A stretch of DNA of 64,000 nt, taken from the NCBI GenBank assembly GCA_046292385.1, contig JBKBRF010000001.1, positions 63,305 to 127,304 of the forward strand, in the 5' to 3' direction. Shown piece by piece: positions 1 through 47,513 of this stretch (the first letter of the stretch is position 1; every line of letters starts with the position of its first letter). This stretch comes from Armatimonadota bacterium (GTDB lineage Bacteria > Armatimonadota > SYMT01). A program made the position numbers and the translations under genes. Under the pieces are notes generated by a model. It made no database searches. It was not told where the DNA came from and saw only the letters and a list, made by a program, of their open reading frames with translations.

Positions 1-460
1 CTCCAGCGGCACGCCCCGGCGGTCGATATGCGGGTTCCACTCCCGGAAGTGGAGGTGAGGCGGCAGGCAGCGGTGCTGCAGCGCCAGCACCGTCTTGATC
101 AGCCCCGCCACCCCGGCGGCGGCTTCCAGGTGGCCCAGGTTCGTCTTGACGGAGCCGACCCACAGCGGCGATTCGCGTCCGGCGAAGACCTCCGCCAGGG
201 CGTGCAGCTCGATCGGGTCTCCCAGGGCGGTGCCGGTGCCGTGGGCTTCCAGGTAGGAGACCTGCTCCGGGGAGAGGCCGGCGCTGTGGAGAGCCTGGCG
301 CAGGAGGGCGACCTGGGCGGGACCGTTGGGGGCGGTGAGGCCGCCGCTGCGGCCGTCGTGGTTGACGGCGGAGCCGCGGATCAGGGCGAGGACGCGGTCG
401 CCGTCGCGCTCGGCGTCGGAGAGCCGCTTCAGCACCACCACCCCGCACCCTTCGCCGCGG
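1..460. repeat. KS C-terminal tract near-identical to 35066-35525 (copy A)
   Basis: Visual alignment at offset 35065 with only scattered substitutions. It includes an exact 89-bp match, 321-409 = 35386-35474. Confidence 0.9.
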
Positions 461-3400
461 ATAAAGCCGTCCGCGGAGGCGTCGAACGCTTTACAGCGGC
501 CGTCCGGCGAAAGCATCTGGAGGGCGGAGAGCGCGGCGGTGGAGCCGTGCGCCAGGATCAGGTTGACGCCGCCGGCGAGGGCGAGGTCGCACTCTCCCTG
601 CCGGAGGCTCTGGAGGGCGAGGTGGGTAGCGACGAGGGATGAGGAGCAGGCGGTGTCGACCACCAGGCTCGGGCCCTGCAGCCCCAGCAAGTACGACAGC
701 CGCCCCGCCACGATGCTCGGCGCGCTGCCGGTCCCGGCGTAGGTGCCGAGCTCCCCCGCTTCGGCAGCGATCCCCGCGTAGTCGTAGTTGCAGAGCCCCA
801 CGAAGACTCCGGCCGGTGAGCCGGCGAGGGTGTCCGGCGGGATCGCGGCGTCTTCCAGCGCTTCCCACGCGACCTCCAGCAGCAGGCGCTGCTGGGGATC
901 CATGCTCGCGGCCTCGCGGGGAGCGATGCCGAAGAAGCCGGGGTCGAACCGGTCGATCCCGTCGAGGAAGGCGCCGCGCCGGGTGGGGATGCGCTCGCGA
1001 TAGGGGTCCTCGCTCCAGCGGTCCGCCGGGAAGTCCCGGACCGCGTCTCGCCCTTCCAGCAGCAGCTCCCGGAAGCCGTCGATGCCCGGCTCGGCGCCCG
1101 GAAACCGGCAGCCGAGGCCGACGATGGCGATCGTGTCGGTGTCGATCGGCTGCGCGGCGTGTCCGCGCGGCCCCTCGGCCGCCGGGCTTCCGAGGCTGCC
1201 GGCGAGGAAGTCGGCCAGCGCTTCGGGCGTGGGATAGTCGAAGAGCAGCGTGGAGGGGAGGACGAGCTCTCCCAGGAGCCGCGTCTGCAGGCGGTTGCGC
1301 AGCTCCACGGCCATCAGCGAGTCGAGCCCCTGGTCGAAGAGCACCGCGTCCGGCCGCACCGCGCTCGCCTGGCTGAAGCCGAGCACCGCGGCGGCCTGGC
1401 TCCGCACCCACTGGAGGAGGGACGCACGATCGAGGTCGAGCGGCGCTGGTGGCACGACTGCAGGAGTCGCCGCCTGCGCGGCGGGCAGCGGGCGGTGGAC
1501 GGCGGCGAGCTCCGCCAGGGCGGAAGGGAGCGGCCCCCCGCCGAACTGGTTCAGGAAGGTAGGCCAGTGCACCGGCAGCACGCCGAGGTGCGCCCGGGAC
1601 TGACCCAGCGACCACCGGAGCGCGGCGATCCCCGCGTCCGGGGGGATCGGCTCCATGCCGCGGGTCGCGAACCGCGTCTCTCCGGCGCGCTCGGCCGCCG
1701 CGCCGATCTCGCTCCACGCGCCCCAACCCAGGCTGACCGCGCGGACCCCGTGCGCCCGGGCGTGTTGCGCCAGGGCATCCAGGAACGCGCTGGCGGCGAC
1801 GTGGTTGGCCTGGCCGAACGCGCCGACCAGCGAGACGGCGGAGGAGAAGAGCGCGAGGAAGTCGAGGTCGCTCGTGCCGCGGTAGAGATTCCACGCCCCG
1901 GCGACCTTCGGACGGAAGACCTCTTCGAAGCGAGTCCAGTCCTGCCGGTCCAGCATTCCGTCCGCAAGCACGCCGGCGGCGTGGACGACGCCCCGGATCG
2001 GCGGCAGCGTGGCAGCCGCCTCCTTCAGGACCCGGTCGACTTCGCCGGCTCGCGAGAGGTCGCAGGCGCGGTAGTGGACCTGCGCGCCGCTCCGCGCCAG
2101 GGCGTCCAGGGCGCGGAGGCGATCGTCGGTGAGCTCGCTCCGGCCGAGCAGGAGCAGGTGGCGGGCGCCCGCATCGACCAGCCACTGCGCGGTCCGCAGC
2201 CCGAGCCCGCCGAGGCCGCCGGCGATCAGGTAGGTGGCGTCGGCACGGATCGCCAGCGGCGCCTCCGGTTCGGGGTCCACCCGCGCCAGGCGGGGCACCC
2301 GGCGAGCCCCACCGCGATACGCCACCCGCTCCTCGCCGTCCTCCGCCTCCAGCTCGTCCACGATCTGTCGAGCCGCTTCTCCGGGCGGTACGGCAGGGTC
2401 GAGGTCAAGGCACATGCACCGCAGCTCCGGCCTTTCGAGCCGGATCGCCTGCCCAAGGCCGGTGGTGGTCGCCTGCAGTGGCTCCGCCTCGGTCGCCCCG
2501 CGCGTGACGAGCAGCAGCCGCGGCGTGGTGTCGCCGAGCGCCTGCAGCATCCGCAGGACCGATCCGCAGGTGTGCTCCTGGCTCTCCAGCACCGCATCCG
2601 GCTTCGAGTCGAGGCTCCAGAGGTGCACGACCTGCCCGATCGGCGCCTCCGCCGTAGAGCGCAGCGCCTCCTCGATCGCGGCACCGCTGTCTCCGCGCCG
2701 GACGACCCGGCAGCGCCCGCCCCGGCGGGAGATCTCCTCGGCCAGCGCTTCCCCATAGCCGCGCTCATCGGCGAAGACGGCGCAGACTCCGTCCCGATCG
2801 GCGGCACCCGGGCGCGCTACGACCACCGCCTGCCGGGTCGCCTCCTCCACCGGGGCGAGTGAAGCGGCGGCGCTCCAGCCGCGCTCGCGCAGCAGCCGCA
2901 GCCACCCCTCGGAGGTGAGGAGGGGATAGGACGGACGCCGGTGCGTGTCGGTGAAGCACCACCAGCCGTCGGTGAGCCCGAACACGACGTCGATCCACCC
3001 CTGCGGCCCCGACCCCTCCAGCAGGACGAGGCTCCCGCCCGGCGCGAGGAGCCGCTCCAGATGGGAAAGCGTGACCTCGAGGTCGGGCGTGGCGTGCAGC
3101 ACGTTCGCGGCGAGGATCAGATCGAAGGAGCGCGCGGTGAACCCCTGCGGCCCCGGATCTTCGGTGACGTCGAGGCGCTCGAAGCGCATGAAAGTGCGGC
3201 CGGAAAACCGCTCCCGCGCTTGCGCCAGGAGCTGCGGGGAAAGGTCGGTGAACCAGTACTCCACCCCCTCCGCGGGCAGCGCCGGAAGCACCGCCGCGGT
3301 GGTGCCGCCCGTCCCCGCGCCTACCTCCAGGATCCGCACCGGGCGACCCGTGGGGAGCGCGGCCTGGACCGCCTGGGCCGCGAGCCGGCTCATCGCGTCG

Positions 3401-6400
3401 TACACTCGCGAGTCGTGGTAGAGGCGCTCGGCGCGCCCGCCCTCGAACAGCAGCGCCAGCGGATCGCGCTCGCCGGTCAGCACCTCGGCCAGCTGGGAGC
3501 CGCAGTGAGCCAGCAGATCGAGCGCCGCGTCACCGTCCCGTCCTTTCGTCCGGAGCTGCTCGGCCAGGACTTCTGCCCTCTCTTCCGGGGCGGTGAGCGC
3601 CAGGCTCCACAGATGAGCGTAGAGCCGAAGGTGCCGCGGCGCGACACTCTCCTCCCGGACCGCTTGCAGCGCCTCGCGGGCGTACGCTGCCGCCAACCGG
3701 TCCAGCTCCCGTCCTCGCTCACGCTCGGCGCCATCCAGCACGTCGGAGGACAGCGATAACCCCGCGGCGATCTGCTCCGGGGAGGGGGCGCGCTCCAGGG
3801 GTCGCGACCGCCACGCGGTCTCGTAGAGCCAGCTCCCCCACGACGGGACCGCCAGCGCAGCCTTCTCCAGTCGCAGTCCCCGGATTTCCGCCGCGAGGCG
3901 CTCTCCCGCGAAGACGCGGATGTCGGCGGTGGTCCGGTTCGCTTCCCGCACGACGACGGCGTGGACCGAGACCGGACCGTCCGACCGGGGGTCGATCACG
4001 TGGAAGGAGGCGATACCGGCCGGAAGCTGCCGGGCGCCGGGGTCTCCACCCCACGCGGCGGCCCCGGCCGCCTGAAGGCAGGCATCCAGGGTCGGCGGGT
4101 CGAGGAGATCGGTGCCCGCGGCGCCGGGGGCGAGGCGTACGACCGCCTCATTCTCACCGACCCAGATCCGCTCGGCTCGCCGGAACGCGGGCCCGTACTC
4201 CAGGCCAGCCTTTCCAAGCCAGTCGTAAAAGTCGCCGGCCGTCCGTTCCTCCGTACAGCGCGCCCGCGCCTCCGCCAGGGAAGCCGGTTCCGGAGACGCG
4301 GGGGCGAGGCAGAGCCGCCCGGCCGCATGCTCCGTCCACCGGTCGCCGTCCCGGCTGCAGAGCGAGAAGCGGGTGCCCGTCCCACGCGTGACCGTGAGCC
4401 GCACGGCGCGGGCCGCATCGAGGACGAGCGGCTGCCGAAGCTCGACTTCTTCTACGACGACTGCGCCGCCCAGAACCTGCTCTCCGCCGGCCCGCGCCGC
4501 GAGGAGCATGCCGGCGGCTGGGAAGAGCACCGTGCCGTTGACGCAGTGGTCCGCAAGGTATCCCGGCGCTTCCGGCGAGAGGGTCGTCTCCCACACCGCC
4601 TCGGCCTCTTCCGAGGAGACCTTGATGCCGAGAAGGGGGTGCGGTCCGGAAGCCGCCGCTGGTGGTGCGGGGCGCGCCGTTTCCCACCAGTGTCGCTCCC
4701 GGGCGAACGGGTAGGTGGGCAGGCTGACGGTGCGGAGCCCTAGCCCGCGGTCGAAGCCGCGCCAGTCCAACGGTACCCCGGCCGTGTAGAGCCGCGCGGC
4801 CGTGTCGAGAAGCATCGCCCAATCGTCCGTGCCGCGCCGCAGTGACGGAAGCCACTCGGCGCCGTCGAGGCACCGCGCCCCGAGCCCGCCCAGGACCGGA
4901 TGGGGGCCGATCTCCAGGAACAGCCGGTAGCCCTGCGCGGCCAGGGTCCGGAGACCGTCCGCGAAGCGGACCCGAGCGCGGGCGTGGCGGCTCCAGTAGG
5001 CTGCGTCGAAAGTCCGCTGCGGCCGGCCCGTCAGGTTGGAGATCACGTCGATACGCGCTTCCGCACACGGGATCGTCCCCGCGAGAGCTTCGAGCTCCGG
5101 CAGCATCGGGTCGAGCCGGTGGGAGTGGAATGCATGGGAGACCGGCAGGAGCTGACCGGCGATGCCCCGCGCGCGCAGCGCCGCCACCGCGGCCTCGATC
5201 GCACCGGCATCCCCCGAGAGGACGGTCTGCGCGGGCCCGTTCTCCGCCGCCACCTCGACCCCGCGGGGCAACCCGCCCAGTGCCGCCCGCACGCCGTCCG
5301 AGGTCGCCGCTGCGGCGGCCATCGCCCCTCCGGGCGGCAGCGCCTGCATCAACCGCCCCCGCCCGGCCATGAGCCGCAGGCCATCCTCCAGGGAGAACGC
5401 GCCGGCCACGCACGCGGCGGCGTACTCGCCGACGCTGTGCCCCAGCACCGCGCCCGGCTCCACTCCCCACGACTTCCAGAGATCCGCCAGCGCCATCTCA
5501 AGCGCGAAGAGCGCGGGCTGCGTGTTCCCGGTCCGGTCGAGCGGCGCCTCCGGATCGAAGAGCAGCGAGAGCAGCGGCTGTTCCGTCTGGCCCCGCAGCA
5601 GGGCGTCGCAGCGGTCCAGGTAGTCCCGGAAGCGGGGCTGTGTCTCGTAGAGCCGCCGGCCCATCGCCCGGTACTGGGAGCCCTGGCCGGTGAAGAGGAA
5701 GGCGATCCGCGGTGGGCGCGGCGCGCTGCGGCCCTTCCGCACGCCCGGAGACGCACCGCCGGACCGGAATGCCTTGAGGGCACCCGCGGCCTGCTCCGCC
5801 GTCTCGGCCACGACGGCGAGCCGCTCCGGAAAGTGTGAGCGGCCCAGGGCAACAGTATGACTGACGTGCTCGAGAGGCAGGTCCGTTTCGGTGAGAAACG
5901 ACTCGTACTGGTCCGCGGCCTGCTCCAGCGCCTCCGGGCTCTTCGCGGAGAGGCAGAGGAGGTGCGCGGGACGCTGCCAGGTCGCCTGTTCCGGGGACGG
6001 CTCCGGGGCCTGCTCCAGGACCACGTGGGCGTTGGTGCCGCCAAAGCCGAACGCGCTCACCCCCGCGACCCGGGAGCCTTCCCGCGGCTCCCACGCCAGC
6101 CCCTCTGTCGGGATCCGAAGCGGGAAGCCGCCGAGCTGGACGTGCGGATTGAGGGAGTGGAAGTGGAGGTGCGGCGGAATTTCGCGCTGCTGGAGGGAGA
6201 GGACAACCTTGATGAGACCCGCGATGCCCGCGGCGGCTTCCAGGTGCCCGAGGTTCGTCTTGGCCGAGCCGACGGTCAGCGGGTCCCCACCCGTGCGCGG
6301 GGAGAAGACCTCGGCCAGCGCGTGCGCCTCGATCGGGTCGCCCAACGCCGTACCGGTGCCATGCGACTCCAGGTAGCTCACGCGGGACGGCTCCAGCCGG

Positions 6401-7365: not shown

Positions 7366-7369
7366 CTCC

Positions 7370-13867: not shown

Positions 13868-13871
13868 TCGG

Positions 13872-17983
<4,112 letters not shown>

Positions 17984-17987
<4 letters not shown>

Positions 17988-28300: not shown

Positions 28301-28920
28301 AGTGAGGATGAGCAGGCGGTATCCACGACCATGGCGGGGCCGCGGAGCCCGAGGAAGTAGGCGAGTCTCCCGGCGGCGATGCTGGTGTGGCTCCCGGAGG
28401 CGGACCACGCGTCGATCCGCTCGGCGTCCCCCGCGCCCCGGCCGAGCAGGGTGTAGCCGCCATTGTAGAGGCCCAGGAAGACGCCCGCATCCGTGCCCTG
28501 GAGGGACGTGGGCGGGATCCCGGCGTGCTCCAGCGCCTCCCACGACACCTCCAGCGCCAGCCGGTGGTGCGGATCCATGGAGACCGCCTCGCGAGGAGCG
28601 ATGCCGAAGAAGGCCGGCTCGAACAGGTCGATCCGGGGCAGAAAGCCGCCGGTCCGGAAGCTCATCTTGCCGGGGGCGGATGGATCGGGGTCGTACCACT
28701 CGCCGATCGCCCAGCGCTCCGCCGGGAGCTCGATGCCCGCGAACGCTCCGGCCCGCAGGAAGCGCCGGAAGTCGTCCGGACCCTCGACGCCGCCCGGAAG
28801 GCGGCAGCCGATCCCGATGACCGCCACCGGCTCGGACGCGGCGCGCTCCGCGACCTCGAGTCGCTTCTCCAGCTCATCGATGGCGAGGAGGGCTCGTTTT
28901 AGCGGTGACAGACTCTCCAA
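22390..28920 (-). CDS. Type I PKS module 5: KS-AT-O-methyltransferase-C-methyltransferase-KR-ACP
   Basis: The track ORF starts at 29052. TTG at 28920 is the likelier start: it has AGGGAG upstream and the docking helix [18 protein letters not shown] follows. AT GHSLG/TPGAYHS; oMT YYDS...VPGFCWL...[10 protein letters not shown]; c[32 protein letters not shown]. Confidence 0.93.
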
Positions 28921-28957
28921 CCCACACTCCCTTGCCGTACTACCCCGGTCTCCAGGC

Positions 28958-36340: not shown

Positions 36341-36370
36341 CGCGCAGCCCTTCCCGAAACCGCTCGCCGA

Positions 36371-39300: not shown

Positions 39301-42300
39301 GGTGGCCGCGCGGACCGTCCCAACCGAGCGCACTTCCAGGGTCGATTCGCCCTACCGCTTCGCCCGCTCCGCGCCAGGTCTCCACGACCCGGCGGAAGCG
39401 TGGGCCGAAGTGGAAGCCGCGGTCGTCTAGCGCGCCGTAAAGATCCGATACCAGCTCCCGGCAGCGGCTGCGTGCCTGATCCAACTGAACCGGTACGGGG
39501 CCGAGAGCGCGTCCCGGCTCCATCCGGCCGGTGGCGTGGCGGCGCCACTCCTCCCCGTCCCGCGCGTAGAGCTGCCAGCTCCCATCCTGTGCCAAGCAGA
39601 GCTGCGCCTCCCGCGCAGCGTCCAGCGGGAGGGGGAGGGCCTCGTGGAGGTCGACCTCCGCCAGGATCGCTCCGGACCGGGTGCTGCGCGCGGCGGCCTG
39701 CCAGGCCAGCTCCAGGAAAACCGTCGCCGGCAGGTAGGTGGTGTCGTGGATCCGGTGGTCCTGCAGGAACACCGTGCGGCGCGCGTCGAGGGAGACCTCG
39801 AAGAGCGTTTCCCCCGTCGCGGCGGAGCGCCGCCCCGGATCGGTGAGCAGGTCGTCTCCCTTCGAGCCGGCGGGCGCCGGGGCCGGAGCGGAGGCCGGAG
39901 CCAGCGAGTCGAACCAGAACCGCTCCCGCTGGAAGGGGTAGGTGGGGAAAGTGACGCGCCGCGCGGAACGGTCGCGGTGAAGCGCTTCCCAGTCCACCTC
40001 CACGCCGAGCTCGTAGAGCGTGCCCAGGCTGCGGAGCAGCGTCTCGCGGTCGTCGGCCCCGCGCCGCAGCGAGGGAAGCCAGAGTCCCCCGTCGACGCAC
40101 TGCCCGCCGAGGGCGGTGAGCACCGGCTGCGGACCGATCTCCACGAAGGCGTCGATCCCGAGCCCCGCCAGCGCGCGGATCCCCTCCGCGAACCGGACGC
40201 ACTCCCGGGCATGCTGCCGCCAGTAGGCCCCATCGAAGAGATCCTGCGCGGCCGCCGTGAGGTTCGAGACTACCGGGATCCGCGGCGGGTGAGGCGCGAT
40301 CCGGTCGGCGGCCGCCTGAAGCGGATCCAGGATCGGCTCCATCAGGGGCGAGTGGAACGCGTGGGAGACGGCGAGAGGGCGACTCTCGATTCCCTCTTCC
40401 CGGAGCAGCGCCGCAGCCTGCGCCAGCGCCCGCTCCTCACCCGCGAGCACCAGGTGACCGGGGGCGTTCTCCGCCGCTACCACCACCTTCAGGCCGGCAC
40501 GCCCCAGCAGCGACCGTACCTGGTCGCTCTCACCGAAGACCGTGGCCATGCCGCCGCCGGCCGGGAGCGACTGCATCAGCCGTCCGCGGGCCGCCACCAG
40601 CGAGAAGGCATCTTCGAGGGAGAGCACTCCGGCCACACAGGCCGCCGCGAACTCGCCCACGCTGTGCCCGATCACCGCTGCCGGCCGCACGCCCCACGCC
40701 TGCCACAGCTCCGCGAGGGCGTACTCCACCGCGAAGAGCGCCGGCTGGGTGTATCCGGTCTGCTCGAGCCGGCCTGCCCCTTCGAAGAGGAGCGGCAGAA
40801 GCGGCACGTCGAGGTGCTCGCGCGCGAGCTCGGCGCAGCGGTCCAGCGCTGCCCGAAACCGGGGCTCCGTCTCGTAGAGGCCACGCGCCATGCCGGGATA
40901 CTGCGACCCCTGGCCGGTGAAAAGGAACGCCACCCTGGGAGGCGCCGCGCCGACGGCGGCCGGGACCGCCTGGGAGAGTGCACGCCGAGCCTCGGCAGCG
41001 GTCCGCGCAACCACCGCCGTCCGGTGTGGGAAGTGTGCTCGCCCGACACCGGCGGTAAAGCAGGTGTCCGAGAAGGCGGCGGCGTCGGCCTCGAGGTGGC
41101 GGGCCGCGCGAGCGATCAGCTCCCGCAGGGCCGGCGCGTTCGCGGCGGAGAGGGGGAGCAACTGCGGCGCTGCGGCGTCGTTCTCTGCGCTCACGGAGGC
41201 CGGGGGCGCCTCTTCGACGATGAGGTGGACGTTAGTCCCGCTGGCGCCGAACGAGCTGACCCCGGCCAGGCGGCGGTGTGGCCCCGGCTCCCAGGGAGTC
41301 GTCTCCACCGGGATCGTGAACGACAAGCCTTCCGGCGTGAGGTGCGGGTTGAGGCTCTTGAGGTGCAGGTGCGGCGGGATCCGGCGGTGGCCCAGCGCCG
41401 CGACGACCTTGAGGAGCCCGGCGATCCCTGCGGCGGCCTCGAGATGACCGAGGTTGGTCTTGACCGACCCGAGCGCGAGCGGCTCCGTCCGGCCCGGACC
41501 GTAAGCGGCGGCGAGCGAGTGGACCTCGATCGGATCGCCCAGGGCCGTGCCGGTCCCATGCGCCTCTACGTAGGTCACCTCTTCGGGGTCGACACCGGCG
41601 TGCGCGAGCGCCTCGCGGATGACCGCTTCCTGCGAAGCGCCGTTCGGGACCGTGAACCCGCTGCTGTGCCCGTCGTGCTTCACGGCGGAGCCGCGCACTA
41701 CGGCCAGGATCCGGTCCCCCCGCGCCGCGGCGTCGGAGAGGCGGCGGAGGACCACCATCCCGCAGCCTTCCCCGCGGACGTAGCCGTCGGCAGCCGCGTC
41801 GAACACCTTGCAGCGACCGTCCGGCGCCAGCATCCGGGCCCGGGAGAGGACGACCGACCCCTCCGGCGCGAGGAGCACGTTCACCCCGCCCGCCAGCGCG
41901 GTATCGCATTCGCCGGAGAGGATCGACTGGCAGGCGAGGTGCAGCGCCACCAGGGAGGAGGAGCAGGCCGTATCGACCACCAGGCTCGGCCCCTGGAGCC
42001 CCAGGAAGTAGGAAAGCCGCCCGGCGATCGTGTTGTTCGCCTGGCCGGTCAGGGTGTAGAGCGACAGCGGGTCGGTGCCGGCCGCGGCCCGCATCCGGTC
42101 GCCATACTCGCTGCCGATGGAGCCGACGAAGACGCCGGTGCGGCTGCCGCGCAGCTCCTTCGGCGACTGGCCCGCGTGTTCCAGCGCCTCCCAACCGACC
42201 TCCAGGACCAGCCGGTGCTGCGGGTCCATCTGGACCGCCTCTCGCGGAGAGATGCCGAAGAACTCCGCGTCGAAGCGGTCGATCCCGTCGAGGAAACCGC

Positions 42301-45300
42301 CGTAGCGCGTGCAGATCTTCCCCGGCCGGTCCGGATCCGGATCGTACCAGGCTTCCACGTCCCAGCGGCCACCCGGCACCTCGACGATCGCGTCCCGGCC
42401 GTCAAAGAGGAGCCGCGCCAGCTCATCGAGGCTGCCGACCCCGCCCGGGAGGCGGCACCCCACCCCCACCACCGCAATCGGCTCGTGACGCGACCGGGCG
42501 GCCACCGCCGGCTCCGCCTCTTCGACCGGCGCCCCGGCGAGCCAGTCCGACAGCTCGCGGACGTTCGGGCGCGCGAAGAGCGCGGCGGCGGGAACGGGTC
42601 GCGCCAGCGTCGTCTCCAGCCGGTGCCGGAATGCCACCGCGGTCAGCGAGTCGAGGCCAATCTGGAAGAAGCCGGCGTGCGCGTCGATCGTCCCCGGGCA
42701 GTCGATGCCGAGCACCGCGGCCAGCTCTCGCCGCACCACTTCTTCGGTCTCGCTTTGCCCCGCAGGCGGCGGGGTGGGGTGGGCAGCTGGCGCCGGCCGA
42801 AGAAGAGTGGGCGCGGATGGCCTGGCGGCACGCACCCGCGGCGCACGCGCAAGCAGGAGACTCTGCTTCAGTCCGTCGGGAATCACTTCCACCGGCCCGA
42901 ACCCCGCTTCGGACAACACGGACCGCCACGTCTCGACCGGGAGCAGCGGGTGGTCCGGCCTCAGCTCCGTGTCCGCGAACTTCCACCAGCCGTCGAGCGT
43001 GCCGACTACCAGGTCGAGCCAGGTGGAGGGGGTGGTCACCTCGATTAGCGCCAGGATGCCGCCGGGCGCGAGGAGAGGTTGGATTCGGCGGAGTGTCTCG
43101 TGCAGATCGGGAGTGGCATGCACCACGTTGGAGGCGAGCACCAGGTCGAACGGACCGTGAAGCTCGGCCGGCGGTCCGGTCAGGTCCAGCAGCTCATACC
43201 GGACGAACGGATAACCGGCGAGCGCCTCCCGGGCACGCGCCAGGAACAGCGGCGAGACGTCGGAGAAGCAGTAATCGGTCCGGTCCGCGGGCAGCGCCGG
43301 GAGCACCGCCGCCGTGGTGCCGCCGGTTCCCGCGCCCAGCTCCAGCACCCGCAGCCGGCCAGGGCGCTGGGCGATCTCTTCGACGGCCGCGCCCAGGAGC
43401 CGGTTGGCGCCGTGGAAGAAGCCGCAGTCGCGGTAGAGCTCGGCGGCGTCCTCCAGGGAGCCGCCGGGGAAGAGCACCTCCAGCGGATCTTTCTCACCGC
43501 TGAGCACCGCCGCCAGCGCTTCCCCACAGCGCCGGACCAGCGTCACGGCGGCGCCTCCGGTCGAGGAAACCTCCGGCACCGGGTGCGGTCCGGCGTCGAG
43601 GGCGGCGCCCAGCAGCCGGCGGGCCAGGCGCGCGTGGCGTGGATCGAGGGAGACGCCGTCCAGCGAGTCGCTCTTTCCGTCCCAGCCGAGCCGGGTAAGC
43701 GCCCGGTGAGCGTAGGCGGCAGCCAGGCGATCCAGCTCCGCATCCACGCCGGCGAACCGGTGGGCGCCCGCCTCGTTCTGCAGCTCGGGCAGCCGGCTGC
43801 GGGCCCGCGCGGCGACGGCCGGCAGCTCTACCTCGCGCGCCGGGGTGGTCCTCTCCGAAAGCGTCTCGTCGTGGTCGGGCCAGCAGCGCTCCCGCTGGAA
43901 CGGATAGGTCGGCAGGGAGATCCGGCGCCGCGAGTACGCCCGGTCGAGCCCGTGCCAGTCGATCTTTACGCCGGCAACGTAAGTCTCGGCGAGGCTGCGG
44001 AAGAGGGTGGCGAGCTCGCCCTTCCCCCGCCGGAGTGACGGGAGCCAGGTACCGCCTTCAACGCAGCTGCGTCCGAGGGTTACGAGAACCGGGTGCGGGC
44101 CGATCTCGATGAAGAGCTCGCAGCCGGCCTCTCGCAGCGCCCGCATCCCGTCCGCGAAGCGCACCGGCTCCCGGGCGTGCCGCCGCCAGTGCGCCGCCGA
44201 GAGCCCGTTCGCACCCTCCAGCGCGGAGACGAAGCGGGCGCGGGGCGTCGCATAGTCGAACCGGCTCGCGAGCGCCTCGAGCTCTTCGAGAACCGGGTCC
44301 AGCAGGGGGGAGTGGAACGCGTGGGAGACCGCCAGCGGGCGGCTGGCGATTCCCTCCCGCTCCAGCCGGGCGGCAACCTCCGCCAGGGCGGCCCGGCTGC
44401 CGGAGAGGACGGTGCTCTCCGGCCCGTTCACCGCCGCAATCGCCGGGTCGAGGAGTCCGCCCAGCGCACGGCGGACTCGCTCCTCCGAGGCGAAGACTGC
44501 GGTCATCCCGCCTCCGTCGGGGAGCGACTGCATGAGCCGTGCCCGCCCGGCGACCAGCTCCAGCGCGTCCGGCAGGCTCATGCCTCCCGCCCGGCAGGCG
44601 GCGGCAAGCTCCCCCACGCTGTGCCCCAGCACCGCGTCCGGCTCCACTCCCCACGATTGCCACAGCTCGGCCAAGGCGTACTGGAGCGCGAAGAGCGCCG
44701 GCTGGGCGCAGCGGGTTTCCTCCAGGGGGGCGCCGTCATCGAAGAGCAGCGGGAGGAGCGGCCGGTCGAGGAGCCGGTCGAGGGTCTCCGCGCACCGGTC
44801 GAGGGCGGCACGAAAGGTTGGCTGCGTCCGATACAGCTCCCGGCCCATCCCCGGGTAGACGGAGCCCTGTCCGGTGAAAAGGAACGCCACCCGAGGAGCC
44901 CGCCCGGCCTCCGCTTTGCCCGCGACCAGCGCCGCCTCGTCCCGGCCGGCGTGGTAGGCGGACAGCACCTTCCGAACGCGCGCGGAGGACTCGCCCACCA
45001 CGGCCAGCCGATGGGGGAGGTGGGTGCGCCCGGTGTTGGCGGTGAAGCAGGCGTCCGGAAGCGGCTCCAGCGGATGCTCCGCGTACCGGCCCGCCAGCTC
45101 CCGCAGTGCTGGCTCCGTGCGCGCGGAGAGAGTCAGGAGGTGGAGCGGACGCTCCTCGGAGGTCTCATGCGATGCGTCGATGCCGGCCGGAACGTACTCC
45201 TGCAGGATGGCGTGGCTGTTGGTCCCGCCGAACCCGAACGAGCTGACGCCGGCGACGGCGGGGCGGCCGGTCTCCGGCCAGGGCGCGAGGCTCGACTGCA

Positions 45301-46744
45301 CCCGCACGTTCAACGTCTCGAACGGAATGGCCGGGTTGGGCCGCTCGTAATGCAGGCTCGGCGGCAGCGTCCGATGGCAGAGAGACAGCGCCACCTTGAT
45401 GAAACCGGTGACGCCCGCCGCCGCTTCCAGATGCCCGAGGTTCGTCTTGACCGACCCCACCAGGAGCGGTACGGAGCGCTCGCGTGCGTAGACCGAGGCG
45501 AGGGCCTTCACTTCGATCGGGTCGCCCAGCCGCGTGCCGGTGCCGTGCGCCTCGACGTAGTCCACCTCCGTCGGGACTACCCTGGCGCGGGCGCAGGCGT
45601 CTCTCAGGACCCCTTCCTGCGCGCGCCGGCTCGGCGCGGTGAGGCCGTTGCTCTCCCCGTCGTTGTTGATCGCCGTTCCGCGGACCACGCAGTAGATCCG
45701 GTCGCCGTCTTCCCGCGCGCGGGAAAGCGGCTTCAGCAGCACCAGGCCGGCTCCCTCTCCGCGCACGTAGCCGTCGGCACGGGCATCGAACGTCTTGCAG
45801 CGCCCGTCCGGAGCCATCGCCCCGAACTTGGTCATGGCGACCGTGCTGGCGGGGGAGAGGATCAGGTTCACGCCGCCGGCAAAGGCGACCGTCGACTCGC
45901 CCCGGCGCAGGCTCTCACACGCCAGGTGGACCGCCACCAGGGAGGACGAGCAGGCGGTGTTGACCGTAAAGCTCGGCCCTTCCAGGCCGAGCCAGTAGGA
46001 GAGGCGCGCGGCGAGGATGCTGCTGTCCAGGCCGGTCGCCGTGTGCCGGGTGATCGTCTCCAGGTCGTGGAAGAGGCGAGCGTAGTCGCTCCACATCGCC
46101 CCGACGAAGACGCCCGCGCGCTGCCCCCGGAGCCGCGCCGCGGGTAGGCCCGCGTCTTCCAGCCCCTCCCAGGCGAGCTCCAGCAGGAGGCGCTGCTGCG
46201 GGTCGATCGCCACCGCTTCCGGCCGGGAGATGCCGAAGAGCTGCGGATCGAACTGGTCGACCCGGTCGAGGAGCCCGGCCCGCCGCGTGTTCATCGTGCC
46301 GGGCCTCTGCGGGTCCGGATCGAAGCGCGCGTCGACGTCCCAACGCTCCGGCGGGACCTCCTGGACGGCGTCTACCCCGCCGGTCAGGAGTCGCCAGAAG
46401 GCGTCGAGGTCCGGGGCGCCCGGCAGGCGGCAGGCCATTCCGACTACGGCAATCGGCTCGTCGTCCGGGAGCGGGATCATCGGCTCCGCGGCAGCGTCCG
46501 CGTTACCGGCGAGGTGCGCGGCGAGCGCCTCGATGGTCGGAAACTCCCAGACCACCGTCTCCGGCAGGGGAGCCCCAACGAAGTTGGCGAGCTCGCGGAC
46601 CAGGTCGGCGGCGCCCAGGGAGTCGATGCCGTACGACGTGAAACGCCGGCTCGGGTCGATCTCCTCGGGGGACAGTCCGCACCGGAGGGATAACTGCGAG
46701 CAGAGCCACTGTTCTACCGCCAGAGGAGTGAGTGGCGACGCCAT
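36371..46744 (-). CDS. Initiating bimodular type I PKS: loading ACP-KS-AT-cMT-ACP-KS-AT-DH-ER-KR-ACP
   Basis: The track ORF starts at 46813; ATG at 46744 with GGAGG upstream is preferred. N-terminal ACP GIDSL; KS NTACSSS; both ATs GHSVG/HAFH (malonyl type); MT LELGAGTGG; DH HRIHDTTYLP; ER LIHAATGGVG; KR GGSGFAG, SYGAAN. Confidence 0.95.
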   Translation of the reverse strand: MASPLTPLAVEQWLCSQLSLRCGLSPEEIDPSRRFTSYGIDSLGAADLVRELANFVGAPLPETVVWEFPTIEALAAHLAGNADAAAEPMIPLPDDEPIAVVGMACRLPGAPDLDAFWRLLTGGVDAVQEVPPERWDVDARFDPDPQRPGTMNTRRAGLLDRVDQFDPQLFGISRPEAVAIDPQQRLLLELAWEGLEDAGLPAARLRGQRAGVFVGAMWSDYARLFHDLETITRHTATGLDSSILAARLSYWLGLEGPSFTVNTACSSSLVAVHLACESLRRGESTVAFAGGVNLILSPASTVAMTKFGAMAPDGRCKTFDARADGYVRGEGAGLVLLKPLSRAREDGDRIYCVVRGTAINNDGESNGLTAPSRRAQEGVLRDACARARVVPTEVDYVEAHGTGTRLGDPIEVKALASVYARERSVPLLVGSVKTNLGHLEAAAGVTGFIKVALSLCHRTLPPSLHYERPNPAIPFETLNVRVQSSLAPWPETGRPAVAGVSSFGFGGTNSHAILQEYVPAGIDASHETSEERPLHLLTLSARTEPALRELAGRYAEHPLEPLPDACFTANTGRTHLPHRLAVVGESSARVRKVLSAYHAGRDEAALVAGKAEAGRAPRVAFLFTGQGSVYPGMGRELYRTQPTFRAALDRCAETLDRLLDRPLLPLLFDDGAPLEETRCAQPALFALQYALAELWQSWGVEPDAVLGHSVGELAAACRAGGMSLPDALELVAGRARLMQSLPDGGGMTAVFASEERVRRALGGLLDPAIAAVNGPESTVLSGSRAALAEVAARLEREGIASRPLAVSHAFHSPLLDPVLEELEALASRFDYATPRARFVSALEGANGLSAAHWRRHAREPVRFADGMRALREAGCELFIEIGPHPVLVTLGRSCVEGGTWLPSLRRGKGELATLFRSLAETYVAGVKIDWHGLDRAYSRRRISLPTYPFQRERCWPDHDETLSERTTPAREVELPAVAARARSRLPELQNEAGAHRFAGVDAELDRLAAAYAHRALTRLGWDGKSDSLDGVSLDPRHARLARRLLGAALDAGPHPVPEVSSTGGAAVTLVRRCGEALAAVLSGEKDPLEVLFPGGSLEDAAELYRDCGFFHGANRLLGAAVEEIAQRPGRLRVLELGAGTGGTTAAVLPALPADRTDYCFSDVSPLFLARAREALAGYPFVRYELLDLTGPPAELHGPFDLVLASNVVHATPDLHETLRRIQPLLAPGGILALIEVTTPSTWLDLVVGTLDGWWKFADTELRPDHPLLPVETWRSVLSEAGFGPVEVIPDGLKQSLLLARAPRVRAARPSAPTLLRPAPAAHPTPPPAGQSETEEVVRRELAAVLGIDCPGTIDAHAGFFQIGLDSLTAVAFRHRLETTLARPVPAAALFARPNVRELSDWLAGAPVEEAEPAVAARSRHEPIAVVGVGCRLPGGVGSLDELARLLFDGRDAIVEVPGGRWDVEAWYDPDPDRPGKICTRYGGFLDGIDRFDAEFFGISPREAVQMDPQHRLVLEVGWEALEHAGQSPKELRGSRTGVFVGSIGSEYGDRMRAAAGTDPLSLYTLTGQANNTIAGRLSYFLGLQGPSLVVDTACSSSLVALHLACQSILSGECDTALAGGVNVLLAPEGSVVLSRARMLAPDGRCKVFDAAADGYVRGEGCGMVVLRRLSDAAARGDRILAVVRGSAVKHDGHSSGFTVPNGASQEAVIREALAHAGVDPEEVTYVEAHGTGTALGDPIEVHSLAAAYGPGRTEPLALGSVKTNLGHLEAAAGIAGLLKVVAALGHRRIPPHLHLKSLNPHLTPEGLSFTIPVETTPWEPGPHRRLAGVSSFGASGTNVHLIVEEAPPASVSAENDAAAPQLLPLSAANAPALRELIARAARHLEADAAAFSDTCFTAGVGRAHFPHRTAVVARTAAEARRALSQAVPAAVGAAPPRVAFLFTGQGSQYPGMARGLYETEPRFRAALDRCAELAREHLDVPLLPLLFEGAGRLEQTGYTQPALFAVEYALAELWQAWGVRPAAVIGHSVGEFAAACVAGVLSLEDAFSLVAARGRLMQSLPAGGGMATVFGESDQVRSLLGRAGLKVVVAAENAPGHLVLAGEERALAQAAALLREEGIESRPLAVSHAFHSPLMEPILDPLQAAADRIAPHPPRIPVVSNLTAAAQDLFDGAYWRQHARECVRFAEGIRALAGLGIDAFVEIGPQPVLTALGGQCVDGGLWLPSLRRGADDRETLLRSLGTLYELGVEVDWEALHRDRSARRVTFPTYPFQRERFWFDSLAPASAPAPAPAGSKGDDLLTDPGRRSAATGETLFEVSLDARRTVFLQDHRIHDTTYLPATVFLELAWQAAARSTRSGAILAEVDLHEALPLPLDAAREAQLCLAQDGSWQLYARDGEEWRRHATGRMEPGRALGPVPVQLDQARSRCRELVSDLYGALDDRGFHFGPRFRRVVETWRGAGEAVGRIDPGSALGWDGPRGHPILLDCALQVLAALMPDGETWMPARFERCAWHGPVPDGELWSHASVTPAADGVLLGEVRLCAPDGRLVAELCGVTMRRVSREVRRGSTAAPAYEVTWQPHPLEERDAPPLRYAVLPDHSGVGLLLADRLLAGDRGRVAVCPELAALPPDVEAVVDLRALDDEAPETVLARAAALVRELGTRATPPRLWLVSQAGEAFDGAAPSAAQAALRGFARSAALEYPGLRCGCVDLDPTASPGHQAEALLRELTAGDGGEEAAYRQGERLVPRLRPIEGSTGYEPKRLIPDTGGTLEQLRLETLTRRAPAPGEIEIQVRAAGVNFKDVLIALGRAGENPGALGAECAGEVTAVGAGVEAFRAGDRVVAFTQEALASYVTAPESLAIHLPAGVGFEAAATLPVAFLTAWYGLHELARLQPGERVLIHAATGGVGMAAVQIARAAGAEVYATASRGKWELARSLGAAHVMDSRSLSFAEEVRERTGGRGVDVVLNSFSGPAIVAGFSALAPGGRFLEIGKTEIWSRERAAAERPDVAYHPFDMKEILAAEPAWYRSLIEKILAQVEAGGLTPLPRRLYSLERAPEAFRLMAGARHTGKIVVTPSHPVELRPDGAYLVTGGSGFAGRQLARWLVERGAGHVLLVGRREPPDELRELAREWELRGTRITLARADVADPEALSAILAEVPDLRGVFHAAGVVSDALIPDLDEARFRTALEPKLHGACNLDRLTRGRDLDFFVLFSSAAALLGSAGQASYGAANAALDAIAWERRAAGLPACAINWGPLEGGMLASLSEAERTRWASRGMRPLSPERLLQAVERAIQDGAVQRVVIDADWETVARFQPSPLLSELVAPGPRPSSHASLEQVDPSERRAVLLELLRGEAARILGYRGGRPLDGRRPLAELGLDSLLAVELRNTLAGLVGCSLPSTLFFDYPTLDGLTDYLLSRLFPAEVTEAAEEATGGPADGDILDLLARELGMTDGL

Positions 46745-46748
46745 CCGG

Positions 46749-47513
46749 TCACCTCCCGGTGGGAAGCTGGAGATCGGCGGCGAGGGCGGTGAGGACCTCC
46801 TGGCGGTACTCATGGAGATAGAAGTGGCCCCCGGGGAACCGGCGCGCCTCGAAGCCCGCGGAAGTGAGCTGCCGCCACGCTTCGACTCCCGTTTCGCTCA
46901 CCTGGTGGTCGTCCCGCCCGTTGTAGAGGCTAAACGGGCAGGCGAGCGGCGGACCCGGCTCGCAGGTGTAGGTCTCGAACAGCTCAACGTCCGCGCGGAT
47001 GACCGGCAGGAAGTAGCGAACCAGCTCCGGCTCGTTCAGGATCTCCCGCGGGATGCCACCGTACCGGACCCGGATCTGCTCCACCAGCTCCTCATCCGGC
47101 AAGGGGTGGAGCAGATCTCCCTCGAGGGGGAGTGTCGGAGCGCGGCGCCCGGAGAGGAAGAGCCGGCGCGGCAGCGGCAGACCCCGCCGCGCCAGCTCTC
47201 GCGCCAGCTCAAAGGCGACGAGCGCGCCGAGACTGTGCCCGAAGAAGGCGCACTCCCGATCCAGCCACGGCTCCAGGGCAGTCGCGAGCCGCTCCACGAG
47301 CGGAGCCATCCGCGTGAAGGGGACTTCGGCGATCCGGCTCTCGCGGCCCGGCATGAGTGCCGAGCAGACCTCGATCTCGGGGGGCAGCGCTTGCCCCCAG
47401 GCGAAAAAGCTCGAGGCGCCGGCCCCCGCATGCGGGAAGCAGACGAGGCGCATGCGCGCCTCGTCTCGAGGTTTGGGGCGCACGAACCAGGAAGAACCAA
47501 CTACGGCGGGCAT
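46749..47513 (-). CDS. Type II (editing) thioesterase
   Basis: 254 aa. LVCFPHAGAGAS, GHSLG nucleophile elbow, C-terminal GGHFY. Lies immediately upstream of the first PKS gene. Confidence 0.95.
   Translation of the reverse strand: MPAVVGSSWFVRPKPRDEARMRLVCFPHAGAGASSFFAWGQALPPEIEVCSALMPGRESRIAEVPFTRMAPLVERLATALEPWLDRECAFFGHSLGALVAFELARELARRGLPLPRRLFLSGRRAPTLPLEGDLLHPLPDEELVEQIRVRYGGIPREILNEPELVRYFLPVIRADVELFETYTCEPGPPLACPFSLYNGRDDHQVSETGVEAWRQLTSAGFEARRFPGGHFYLHEYRQEVLTALAADLQLPTGR

What the first reader, a model, noticed from the sequence alone, without database searches (positions are those of the whole stretch)
1..47513. Collinear thiazole-polyketide pathway whose domain string I cannot match to a known cluster
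Predicted chemistry by module: unknown starter; alpha-(di)methyl beta-keto unit; fully reduced unit; odd DH*/ER unit; hydroxyl; alpha-methyl-beta-methoxy; enoyl; Cys-derived thiazole; alpha-methyl saturated unit; alpha-methyl enoyl; further extension off-window. Methyl branches appear to come from four SAM-dependent cMT domains rather than methylmalonyl-type ATs. The parts resemble epothilone, myxothiazol and curacin-type enzymes, but the order matches none I recall.
Basis: partly seen in the sequence, partly recalled or inferred. Interest (0 to 1): 0.82.

Follow-up and report, generated by a model that had tools for sequence, protein, structure and literature searches.

The report
Orphan thiazole polyketide gene cluster
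This is an intact, roughly 72-kb gene cluster in an uncultured Armatimonadota bacterium that should build an unknown sulfur-containing, methyl-branched polyketide; it matches no described pathway closely, but it is a familiar kind of enzyme assembly line with one unusual trait, that half of its modules lack their own loading domain.

Summary
All genes lie on the minus strand.

The window holds about two thirds of one operon of about 72 kb. Using the rest of the contig, I found 13 modules (11 PKS, 2 NRPS). The line ends in Cy-A(MT)-PCP-TE, followed by a P450, a PapA5-like acyltransferase and a PPTase.

Methyl branches come from cMT domains. Four of the five ATs carry the malonyl-type HAFH motif.

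The 98.5%-complete genome holds no free-standing AT except FabD.

The host is an uncultured Armatimonadota bacterium.

No relative of the thiazole module exceeds 57% identity in the protein, genome and metagenome collections searched. No relative of the O-MT/cMT module exceeds 53% in the protein collection. MIBiG itself could not be run.

Mixed cis/trans-AT PKS-NRPS hybrids are a catalogued class. I therefore call this a new member of a known kind, with moderate interest.

The scan had not noted this cluster on other DNA.

The parts
46749..47513 (-). Type II thioesterase gene, first gene of the operon. Its stop lies 4 nt upstream of the likely true start of gene B (Met24 of the ORF).
   Evidence: Pfam Thioesterase E=2e-40. 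GHSLG serine motif seen.
36371..46813 (-). Gene B. Domains: loading ACP (46511-46711); module 1 KS-AT-cMT-ACP (KS 45347-46459, AT 43988-44884, cMT 42899-43405); module 2 KS-AT-DH-ER-KR-ACP (KS 41363-42484, AT 40016-40927, DH 39068-39826, ER 37523-38389, KR 36974-37486).
   Evidence: Both ATs read GHSVGE/HAFH. Both KS have C-H-H.
28958..36340 (-). Gene C. Module 3 is KS-DH*-ER-ACP, with no AT, no KR and a degenerate DH (KS 35111-36232, DH* 33671-34498, ER 32765-33619). Module 4 is KS-KR-ACP with no AT (KS 31280-32368, KR 29528-30052).
   Evidence: Module 3 is 62.7% identical to module 10 (H2) over 848 aa.
22390..29052 (-). Gene D. Module 5 is KS-AT-OMT-cMT-KR-ACP (AT 26365-27273 with the unusual GAYH motif, O-MT 25264-26187, cMT 24187-24717, KR 23032-23565 with His at the catalytic Tyr position).
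   Evidence: GAYH occurs in 0 of 318 other ATs compared.
17984..22393 (-). Gene E. Module 6 is KS-DH-KR-ACP with no AT (KS 21173-22291, DH 19748-20533, KR 18548-19069).
   Evidence: The KS-linker region best matches PDB 7zma, then CurL.
13872..17987 (-). Gene F. Module 7 is the NRPS: TubC-type docking domain, Cy (16527-17774), Cys-specific A (15078-16400), Ox inserted in the A domain (14388-14921), PCP (13965-14153). It forms the thiazole.
   Evidence: The best full-length relative is 56% identical.
15078..16526 (-). A-domain core repeat. These 1449 nt differ at 16 positions from the A domain of the terminal NRPS module in gene J (outside the window). The proteins are 99.8% identical over 483 aa.
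   Evidence: The Logan contig over this piece has depth 98.7 against about 50 in the flanks, which fits two copies.
7370..13867 (-). Gene G. Module 8 is KS-DH-cMT-ER-KR-ACP with no AT (KS 12740-13861, DH 11282-12076, cMT 10184-10705, ER 8609-9466, KR 8054-8578).
1..7647 (-). Gene H, 5' two thirds; the whole gene is 3880 aa. Module 9 is KS-AT-DH-cMT-KR-ACP (AT 4801-5700, cMT 2875-3384). The KS of module 10 lies at 46-1134. Module 10 (KS-DH-ER-KR-ACP, no AT) continues beyond the window start.
50388..55240 (-). RND efflux pump (AcrB-type, 50388-53582) and membrane-fusion protein (53579-55240), upstream and co-directional. They may be an exporter for the product; membership of the cluster is not shown.
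   Evidence: Pfam ACR_tran E=8e-262 and HlyD_D23. The best relatives lie in other families of the phylum (52-56%), not in its own family (34-37%).

Best explanation
Window 1-47513 is the upstream two thirds of one translationally coupled operon of about 72 kb (contig C1 38724-110817). The operon belongs to an uncultured Armatimonadota bacterium. It encodes an uncharacterised hybrid type I PKS-NRPS assembly line of 13 modules.

**Shown from sequence**
- A loading ACP is followed by 11 KS-containing modules, all with Cys-His-His.
- There are two heterocyclising Cys modules. The mid-chain one carries an oxidase, so it should give a thiazole. The terminal one carries an inserted methyltransferase and a TE.
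- There are six PKS cMTs, one StiD/E-type O-MT and five integrated ATs.
- A P450, a PapA5-like acyltransferase and a PPTase are coupled to the 3' end of the operon.

**Inferred product, by collinearity**
- Unknown starter.
- Alpha-(di)methyl-beta-keto unit.
- Saturated unit.
- A keto unit, or a skipped one, from the KR-less module 3.
- Beta-hydroxy unit.
- Alpha-methyl-beta-methoxy unit.
- Enoyl unit conjugated to a thiazole.
- Alpha-methyl saturated unit.
- Alpha-methyl-enoyl unit.
- Saturated unit.
- Two alpha-methyl-enoyl units.
- A terminal, probably C-methylated, thiazoline-4-carboxylate. The TE releases it as an acid or as a macrolactone on the module-4 hydroxyl.

**Inferred mechanism for the AT-less modules**
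Six PKS modules (3, 4, 6, 8, 10, 12) have had the AT cut out cleanly. The genome has no dedicated trans-AT. Their ACPs must therefore be malonylated in trans. I put this at about 50% for the line's own integrated malonyl-ATs, 25% for housekeeping FabD, and the remainder for an AT gene missing from the assembly.
For: - **Domain map.**
- **Active sites.** All 11 KS carry C-H-H. All carrier domains keep the Ser. Seven of eight DHs keep the catalytic His and the Asp of DxxxQ. Both Cy domains carry DxxxxDxxS, and the A domains read the Cys code.
- **Methyltransferases.** The O-MT matches StiE/StiD and the cMT matches CurJ.
- **Terminal NRPS.** It matches FmoA3, BmdB, PchE and EpoB Cy structures. 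An MT lies between the A core and A10, followed by PCP and TE.
- **Operon structure.** Four-nucleotide start/stop overlaps link D/E, E/F, J/P450, P450/C and C/PPTase (coordinates).
- **AT excision.** The excision is clean, and the KS-AT linker and post-AT linker are kept.
- **AT count in the genome.** The whole genome has 6 AT-family matches: 5 in the cluster and 1 FabD (TIGR00128, 342.5 bits against a cut-off of 260.9). Completeness is 98.45%.
- **Taxonomy.** RpoB is 76% identical to its best named match, an Armatimonadetes MAG, and 60% to Capsulimonas. mnmA lies 4 kb from the cluster end and is 66-86% identical in same-family genomes.
- **Orphan status.**
- **Selection.** There are no frame breaks over 72 kb. 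Of the 40 variants listed in environmental contigs, 28 are synonymous and 12 are not.
- **His-type KRs.** A review states that the KR tyrosine is 'sometimes replaced by histidine' (PMC7327777, passage seen).
Against: - No product, expression data or biochemistry exists.
- Nothing shows which enzyme loads the AT-less modules.
- The genome is a 91-contig assembly, so a trans-AT on an unrecovered contig cannot be excluded.
- Module 3 (KS-DH*-ER-ACP, with no KR and no AT) has no clear chemical role and may be skipped.
- AT_D carries a GAYH motif not seen in 318 other ATs, so its substrate is unknown.
- The starter unit is unknown. The loading ACP has no dedicated loading enzyme.
- MIBiG was not searched directly.
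- Whether the terminal MT methylates carbon or nitrogen is inferred only from its likeness to the PKS cMTs (158 bits).
Confidence: 0.8

Rival explanations
1. The cluster is an orthologue or close variant of an already characterised pathway (an epothilone, myxothiazol/melithiazol, thuggacin, archazolid, curacin or yersiniabactin relative) that the first reader simply did not recall.
For: Individual domains have their best solved relatives in StiD/E, CurJ/CurL, EpoB, BmdB and PchE. The last protein resembles the yersiniabactin HMWP1 layout (layout recalled).
Against: - No protein above 56% identity to module F, or above 53% to module D, appears in 5.8 billion clustered proteins that draw on NCBI nr and UniRef.
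- Module F reaches at most 56% in one genome per species for 185,579 species. That set includes Sorangium (L035, 53%) and Moorena producens 3L (L060, 50%).
- None of about 155 related loci has the same domain order around the Cy-A-Ox module.
- The thiazole sits mid-chain after six PKS modules. In epothilone it is at the start, and in myxothiazol two thiazoles are adjacent (both recalled).
Confidence: 0.04
2. A dedicated trans-AT exists but is not in the assembly, because it lies on an unbinned contig or in the missing 1.5%. The line would then be an ordinary mixed cis/trans-AT PKS-NRPS like kirromycin.
For: - The genome is a 91-contig draft.
- Mixed lines are a recognised class: 351 of 8799 catalogued assembly lines (PMC10394414, passage seen).
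- The best solved relative of the AT-less KS-linker regions is a Brevibacillus brevis PKS treated as trans-AT.
Against: - Trans-AT genes normally lie inside their cluster (established knowledge).
- The operon is bounded on one 333-kb contig by a native mnmA and sigma-factor region on one side and by pump, kinase and PQQ-dehydrogenase genes on the other. Neither side has an AT.
- A Pfam AT search of the whole genome finds only the 5 cis-ATs and FabD.
- The architecturally similar Solibacteraceae MAG G041 shows the same picture: 3 full ATs, AT remnants and one FabD-like gene.
Confidence: 0.2
3. The AT-less modules are dead or skipped, so the cluster is decaying or makes a much shorter product than collinearity predicts.
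For: - Six modules cannot load themselves.
- Module 3 has a degenerate DH and no KR.
- Internal duplications (module 3 with module 10, and the two A domains) show recent rearrangement.
Against: - All six AT-less KSs keep Cys-His-His, and their ACPs keep the Ser.
- Their DH, ER, KR and cMT motifs are intact except in module 3.
- There is no stop or frameshift in 72 kb.
- Environmental variants are mostly synonymous: 28 of the 40 listed.
- Pieces 94-100% identical occur in soil and root metagenomes of three other studies.
Confidence: 0.12
4. The cluster does not belong to this organism; that is, a mis-binned or chimeric contig.
For: - Cluster GC is 72-74% against 69% for the genome.
- None of the 40 related genomes searched has an orthologue; the best KS identity is 49%.
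- The nearest KS relatives (up to 60%) are in an Acidobacteriota MAG.
Against: - The cluster sits inside a 333-kb contig.
- mnmA, 4 kb away, tracks the family phylogeny: 66-86% in the same family and about 50% in the rest of the phylum.
- Logan contigs of the likely source run are collinear with the window with 0 differences outside the repeat.
- The pattern fits horizontal acquisition into a native chromosome better than mis-binning.
Confidence: 0.04

Closest known systems
Mixed cis-/trans-AT PKS-NRPS hybrids (catalogue class in PMC10394414; kirromycin as the textbook case, PMC5818483, abstract seen)
   Same: One assembly line combines AT-containing modules, AT-less modules and NRPS modules. 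The AT-less modules keep the KS-AT linker domain and the post-AT linker.
   Different: - No discrete trans-AT gene lies in the cluster or anywhere in the 98.5%-complete genome.
- AT-plus and AT-minus KSs are 56-64% identical to each other and intermix in one clade (the tree's support values were not inspected). They do not come from separate cis and trans lineages.
Orphan PKS-NRPS cluster of a Solibacteraceae (Acidobacteriota) MAG (G041, contigs C17 and C27; locus L071)
   Same: - The same building style: a loading ACP, a Cy-A-Ox thiazole module, cMT modules with His-type KR, interleaved AT-plus and AT-minus modules, and a KR-less DH-ER module.
- KSs are up to 60% identical.
- Only 3 full ATs plus a FabD-like gene are found in that genome.
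   Different: The module order is different and the thiazole lies near the chain start, so the product differs. It retains N-terminal AT remnants where this cluster has clean excisions. It is also uncharacterised.
Epothilone EpoB/EpoP-type and bacillamide BmdB-type thiazole modules
   Same: Cy-A-Ox-PCP with the oxidase inserted in the A domain, and a Cys-specific code. EpoB Cy and BmdB are among the best solved relatives.
   Different: Here the thiazole is built mid-chain on a six-module polyketide and handed to an AT-less KS. Identity to any database protein is at most 56%.
Stigmatellin StiD/StiE (and myxothiazol-type) O-methylating modules; curacin CurJ/CurL
   Same: The O-MT matches StiE/StiD over its full length (E=1e-76 to 1e-63). 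The cMT matches CurJ (E=9e-70). CurL is the second-best solved relative of the module 6 KS.
   Different: O-MT and cMT lie together in one module (AT-OMT-cMT-KR). This layout is shared with many uncharacterised proteins of about 2,150 aa at no more than 53% identity. There is no beta-methoxyacrylate end and no bis-thiazole.
Yersiniabactin HMWP1 / pyochelin PchF chain termini (layouts recalled from memory)
   Same: The last protein ends in cMT-KR-ACP-Cy-A(MT)-PCP-TE, which predicts a methylated thiazoline carboxylate terminus. PchE is among the best solved relatives.
   Different: It is preceded by ten further PKS modules, there is no aryl cap, and no reductase for a thiazolidine was found. A siderophore role is not indicated.
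Brevibacillus brevis BGC11 bimodule (PDB 7zma; PMC9491710, passages seen)
   Same: It is the best solved relative of the AT-less KS-linker regions of modules 6 and 8 (750 and 684 bits).
   Different: That system is described as a trans-AT PKS and is itself an orphan. In this cluster equally similar KSs carry integrated ATs.

Membership tests
Modular type I PKS-NRPS hybrid assembly line | Multiple KS domains with Cys-His-His, each followed by a carrier domain with a phosphopantetheine serine | tested here: met
   11 of 11 KS have C-H-H. All 14 carrier domains have the Ser (module 3 reads DST).
Modular type I PKS-NRPS hybrid assembly line | NRPS module(s) with condensation-type, adenylation and carrier domains in the same operon, a terminal release domain, and a PPTase available | tested here: met
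   Two Cy-A-PCP modules, a terminal TE, a Sfp/HetI-like PPTase and a TEII.
cis-AT PKS | Every extension module carries its own AT | tested here: not met
   5 ATs for 11 PKS modules. The AT is cleanly absent from modules 3, 4, 6, 8, 10 and 12.
trans-AT PKS | AT-less modules that keep the KS-flanking linker domain | tested here: met
   6 of 11 modules.
trans-AT PKS | A discrete, co-clustered acyltransferase gene | tested here: not met
   The Pfam PF00698 search of the whole genome gives 5 cis-ATs plus FabD only. No AT lies in the flanks.
trans-AT PKS | KS domains belonging to trans-AT KS clades | tested here: inconclusive
   - The best solved relative is the B. brevis trans-AT KS4 (750 bits). 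Next come the cis-AT CurL (622 bits), Lsd14 (523 bits) and DEBS (about 470-506 bits).
- Classical trans-AT KSs (PksL, PksJ) score about 405 bits.
- My tree had no curated trans-AT reference set.
Thiazole-forming NRPS module (EpoB/BmdB/MtaC type) | Cy domain with DxxxxD in place of HHxxxDG, a Cys-specific A domain, and an FMN oxidase domain | tested here: met
   DLLIADAAS motif. Code DLYNLSLIWK read from the sequence (code recalled). Nitroreductase-family domain at residues 1023-1200 inside the A domain.
Epothilone cluster | High-identity synteny: the thiazole is made by the second module on an acetyl starter, followed by cis-AT modules that use methylmalonyl | tested here: not met
   The thiazole module is the seventh module. 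No AT is YASH-type. The Sorangium locus L035 is only 53% identical and has a different domain order. The epothilone layout is recalled.
Myxothiazol/melithiazol/cystothiazole clusters | Two adjacent heterocyclisation modules (bis-thiazole) and a beta-methoxyacrylate end | tested here: not met
   Five PKS modules separate the two Cy modules. The O-MT lies in module 5, upstream of the thiazole. The family layout is recalled.
PapA5-like acyltransferase (condensation superfamily) | Full-length similarity to PapA5 and an HHxxxDG-type catalytic motif | tested here: met
   PDB 8s6l at E=1.6e-23 over residues 3-393. The motif reads SHLAADG, so the second His and the Asp are kept. The NCBIfam PapA5 score of 60.6 bits is far below the 396-bit cut-off, so it is a distant member only.

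The most novel reading that the evidence does not exclude
The synthase is self-sufficient. Its five integrated malonyl-ATs (or housekeeping FabD) load six AT-less modules in trans without any dedicated trans-AT. This would be a living intermediate between cis-AT and trans-AT architectures, shared with at least one acidobacterial cluster. It makes a new thiazole/methylthiazoline polyketide scaffold, which would be the first assembly-line natural product assigned to Armatimonadota.
Probability: 0.35. Interest if true: 0.65.

Novelty: new member of a known kind. Interest (0 to 1): 0.45.

Why it matters
- **Source organism.** In the literature I could search I saw no characterised natural product from Armatimonadota. 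Search one search found 17 papers holding the three terms; 14 were listed, I read only that listing and the abstract starts shown, and none concerned an Armatimonadota compound. A complete, apparently selected, 13-module line with no close relative is a reasonable target for heterologous expression and would probably give a new sulfur-containing scaffold.
- **Mechanism.** A line in which AT-containing and AT-less modules of one KS lineage alternate, in a genome without a trans-AT, offers a direct test of two questions: whether integrated ATs can serve neighbouring modules, and how trans-AT architectures arise.
- **Limits.** The system type is well known, and orphan clusters in uncultured bacteria are common.

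Tried and rejected
- **MIBiG/antiSMASH/BiG-SCAPE.** Not available here. I replaced them with sequence searches and a home-made domain-string comparison of about 155 related loci.
- **Earlier notes of this scan.** Nothing near the place, and no look-alike by sequence.
- **RNA evidence.** No RNA holder listed, so nothing can be said on expression.
- **Soil and root runs X2, X3, X5.** Only pieces of 300-1400 bp were listed. They show that close variants exist, but not that the whole cluster or the same module order is present there.
- **Short-sided joints.** Many joints with short sides (20-49 letters) link different modules. I take them as cross-matches between paralogous PKS domains or other organisms, not as rearrangements.
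- **Literature on AT-less modules without a trans-AT.** Searches gave no direct precedent. I read only listings and the passages cited. In the NaPDoS2 biome paper 'hybrid cis-AT' means a KS that follows an NRPS module, which is a different thing.
- **His-for-Tyr KRs as a sign of dead KRs.** Rejected. The substitution is stated in a review and is common in cMT modules elsewhere.
- **Mis-assembly through the 1.45-kb A-domain repeat.** With two direct copies on one linear contig, only one order uses all flanks. The doubled depth of the repeat contig fits two copies.
- **Structure prediction, complex prediction and atlas searches.** Not used, because the domains are of known families.

Full report
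**1. What is in the window**

The window is 72-74% G+C from 1 to about 44 kb and 67-71% beyond that. Eight large ORFs, all on the minus strand, tile 1-47513. Pfam and a phmmer map seeded with the cluster's own domains give, in the direction of transcription:
- TEII.
- B: ACP-KS-AT-cMT-ACP-KS-AT-DH-ER-KR-ACP.
- C: KS-DH*-ER-ACP-KS-KR-ACP.
- D: KS-AT-OMT-cMT-KR-ACP.
- E: KS-DH-KR-ACP.
- F: TubC-type dock-Cy-A-Ox-PCP.
- G: KS-DH-cMT-ER-KR-ACP.
- H: KS-AT-DH-cMT-KR-ACP-KS..., open at the window start.

Upstream of TEII lie an ABC1 kinase, an RND pump with its fusion protein, and unrelated genes.

**2. The rest of the cluster**

The window is contig C1 63305-127304 of a 7.04-Mb, 91-contig genome with 69% G+C. 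The genome is 98.45% complete with 2.9% contamination. Reading on beyond the window start gives:
- H is 3880 aa and adds module 10 (KS-DH-ER-KR-ACP).
- I (2201 aa) is KS-AT-DH-cMT-KR-ACP.
- J (3598 aa) is KS-DH-cMT-KR-ACP-Cy-A(MT inserted)-PCP-TE.
- A P450 follows, with its haem motif seen.
- A PapA5-like acyltransferase follows (PDB 8s6l, E=1.6e-23; motif SHLAADG).
- A HetI/Sfp-like PPTase follows.

Several gene pairs overlap by 4 nt: D/E, E/F, J/P450, P450/C-domain gene and C-domain gene/PPTase (coordinates). The 13 genes therefore read as one operon of about 72 kb. Beyond it lie a divergent WYL regulator, a sigma factor with STAS and anti-sigma genes, and mnmA.

**3. State of the catalytic residues**

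- **KS.** All 11 KSs keep Cys-His-His.
- **AT.** Four ATs read GHS[VL]GE...HAFH, the malonyl type (assignment recalled). AT_D reads GAYH, a motif found in 0 of 318 ATs of related proteins. None is YASH.
- **DH.** Seven of eight DHs keep the catalytic His and the Asp of DxxxQ. The DH of module 3 has lost the His and reads E for D.
- **Module 3.** It has no KR, because ER abuts the ACP. It is 62.7% identical to module 10 over 848 aa, so it looks like a duplicated and degraded copy.
- **KR.** All nine KRs carry the Asp of the LDD-type motif, which marks B-type (assignment recalled). The five KRs in cMT modules have His at the catalytic Tyr position. An alignment to AmphB confirms this. A review states that this Tyr is 'sometimes replaced by histidine' (PMC7327777, passage seen).
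- **Methyltransferases.** The first MT of D matches the StiE/StiD O-MT structures over its full length, and the second matches CurJ cMT.
- **NRPS.** Both Cy domains carry DxxxxDxxS, and the A domains read DLYNLSLIWK (Cys; code recalled).
- **A-domain repeat.** The two A-domain cores are 99.8% identical over 483 aa. At the DNA level 1449 nt differ at 16 positions, with only one mismatch in the first 1207.

**4.

Six of the 11 PKS modules (3, 4, 6, 8, 10, 12) have no AT.
- An alignment of KS-to-next-domain regions shows that about 300 residues are absent, from FLFTGQG to EIGPxPVL. The KS-AT linker domain and the post-AT [12 protein letters not shown] segment remain.
- tblastn and a Pfam PF00698 search of the whole genome find only the five cis-ATs and one other gene. 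That gene is FabD (TIGR00128 equivalog, 342.5 bits against a cut-off of 260.9).
- AT-plus and AT-minus KSs are 56-64% identical to KS6. In a FastTree of 120 KSs they intermix in one clade. I did not inspect support values, and no curated trans-AT references were available.
- Against solved structures, the AT-less KS-linker of modules 6 and 8 matches best KS4 of the Brevibacillus brevis BGC11 bimodule, which is described as trans-AT (PMC9491710, passages seen). For module 6 the next matches are CurL, Lsd14 and DEBS, with classical trans-AT KSs lower.

**5. Is the assembly sound?**

- Logan contigs of the likely source run cover 12001-15180, 16526-22065 and 22036-32000 with 0 differences. They bridge the AT-less junctions of modules 8, 6 and 4.
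- The contigs break only at the A-domain repeat. The repeat contig has about twice the depth (98.7 against about 50).
- This is the same data put through another assembler, so it is not independent sampling.
- Runs from three other studies (soil and root metagenomes) hold pieces of 300-1400 bp at 94-100% identity.
- Of the 40 best-supported variants listed, out of 509 in all, 28 are synonymous and 12 are not. Some variants within the repeat may come from the paralogous copy.

**6. Whose cluster is it?**

- RpoB is 84% identical to unnamed metagenome proteins, 76% to a MAG labelled Armatimonadetes, and 60% to Capsulimonas. Earlier notes of this scan on other parts of the genome say the same.
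- mnmA, 4 kb from the operon end, is 66-86% identical in the six same-family genomes and about 50% elsewhere in the phylum. The contig is therefore native.
- Among 40 related genomes, none has an orthologue of gene E. The best identities are 49% and 47% in two same-family genomes, and 42-43% in three others.
- The nearest KSs (up to 60%) and the most similar building style are in a Solibacteraceae MAG (G041). That cluster also interleaves AT-plus and AT-minus modules around a Cy-A-Ox module. It has a KR-less DH-ER module and a His-type KR. Its genome shows only three full ATs, three AT remnants, one truncated AT at a contig end and a FabD-like gene. Its module order differs.
- Horizontal acquisition is plausible but not shown.

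**7. Known or not?**

- Module F has no relative above 56% in the 5.8-billion-protein collection. The only full-length one is P0043 at 56%.
- It has none above 56% among 580 relatives in the genome collection (80 listed), and none above 57% among 461 in the metagenome collection (80 kept).
- The OMT-cMT-KR region of D reaches 53%. Named relatives such as McyD are at about 36%.
- None of the roughly 155 related loci has the same domain order.
- I could not run MIBiG. On the searches done, a high-identity syntenic match to a characterised cluster is very unlikely.
- The class itself is known. [quoted passage not shown]

**8. How it most likely works**

*Shown.* The domain order and the intact motifs.

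*Inferred.* Collinear synthesis would run as follows:
- An unknown starter sits on the loading ACP. No loading enzyme was found, so AT1 may load it.
- Module 1 gives an alpha-methyl or gem-dimethyl beta-keto unit.
- Module 2 gives a saturated unit.
- Module 3 gives a retained ketone, or the chain passes through it.
- Module 4 gives a beta-hydroxyl.
- Module 5 gives an alpha-methyl-beta-methoxy unit.
- Module 6 gives a trans-enoyl unit.
- Module 7 gives the thiazole.
- Module 8 gives an alpha-methyl saturated unit.
- Module 9 gives an alpha-methyl-enoyl unit.
- Module 10 gives a saturated unit.
- Modules 11 and 12 give two alpha-methyl-enoyl units, forming a diene.
- Module 13 gives a thiazoline-4-carboxylate. 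It is probably C-methylated, because its MT resembles the PKS cMTs (158 bits).
- The TE then releases the chain by hydrolysis or by lactonisation onto the module-4 hydroxyl.
- P450 and the PapA5-like enzyme would tailor or acylate the product. The adjacent RND pump may export it.

The AT-less modules must receive malonate in trans. I favour the line's own ATs (about 50%) over FabD (about 25%) or an unrecovered AT (about 20%). None of this has been tested.

**9. Verdict**

- This is a complete, apparently functional, orphan hybrid PKS-NRPS operon from an uncultured phylum. It is a new member of a known kind.
- Two points go beyond the ordinary: the mosaic of AT-plus and AT-minus modules without any trans-AT gene, and the source phylum.
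- Interest is moderate (0.45), not 0.82.

Noticed in passing
window 23032-23565, 8054-8578 and 1708-2238 (KRs of modules 5, 8, 9), plus the KRs of genes I and J in L002: All five KRs in cMT-containing modules have His in place of the catalytic Tyr (GQANHAAAN). The four KRs without a cMT have Tyr. In 256 other large PKS proteins (557 KRs), KRs preceded by a cMT read 139 His, 38 Tyr and 7 Ala, while KRs without a cMT read 355 Tyr and 11 His. That sample was chosen by likeness to His-type queries, so it is biased. A review mentions the substitution, but I did not see the link to cMT modules stated.
   Followed up: partly
window 15078-16526 and L002 (gene J, residues 2322-2804): The two Cys-specific A-domain cores are near-identical: 16 mismatches in 1449 nt, with only one in the first 1207. 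Their Cy domains are only 60% identical. This looks like recent gene conversion inside the operon.
   Followed up: partly
window 26365-27273 (AT of module 5): The specificity motif reads GAYH where malonyl ATs read HAFH. None of 318 ATs from related proteins has it, and 40 of 45 ATs that precede a StiD/E-like O-MT read HAFH. The substrate is unknown.
   Followed up: partly
L167-L172 (genome G041, contigs C17 and C27): A Solibacteraceae MAG carries a large orphan PKS-NRPS with the same mosaic of AT-plus and AT-minus modules. Pfam finds three truncated AT remnants there (profile positions within about 9-116 of 319). This suggests stepwise AT decay in this kind of line.
   Followed up: partly
proteins P0242-P0300: Many uncharacterised single-module proteins of about 2,000-2,300 aa carry the precomputed Pfam families of a KS-AT-OMT-cMT-KR-ACP module. 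They occur in diverse bacteria, including Thalassobaculum, Geminicoccus and Competibacteraceae MAGs, at 41-53% identity to module 5. I did not map their domain order.
   Followed up: no
window 50388-55240: The RND pump next to the cluster has its best relatives (52-56%) in other families of the phylum. Genomes of its own family have only 34-37% paralogues. This is a patchy distribution, like that of the cluster itself.
   Followed up: no
window 12001-32000: Short contigs 94-100% identical to the cluster occur in soil and root metagenomes of three studies other than the likely source, which is a hot-spring metagenome. The organism or the cluster seems to be widespread.
   Followed up: partly
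window 55546-58131: An 861-aa ORF joins a partial glycosyl hydrolase family 1 match (residues 48-195) to a DUF362 domain (residues 486-681). The architecture is unexplained.
   Followed up: no
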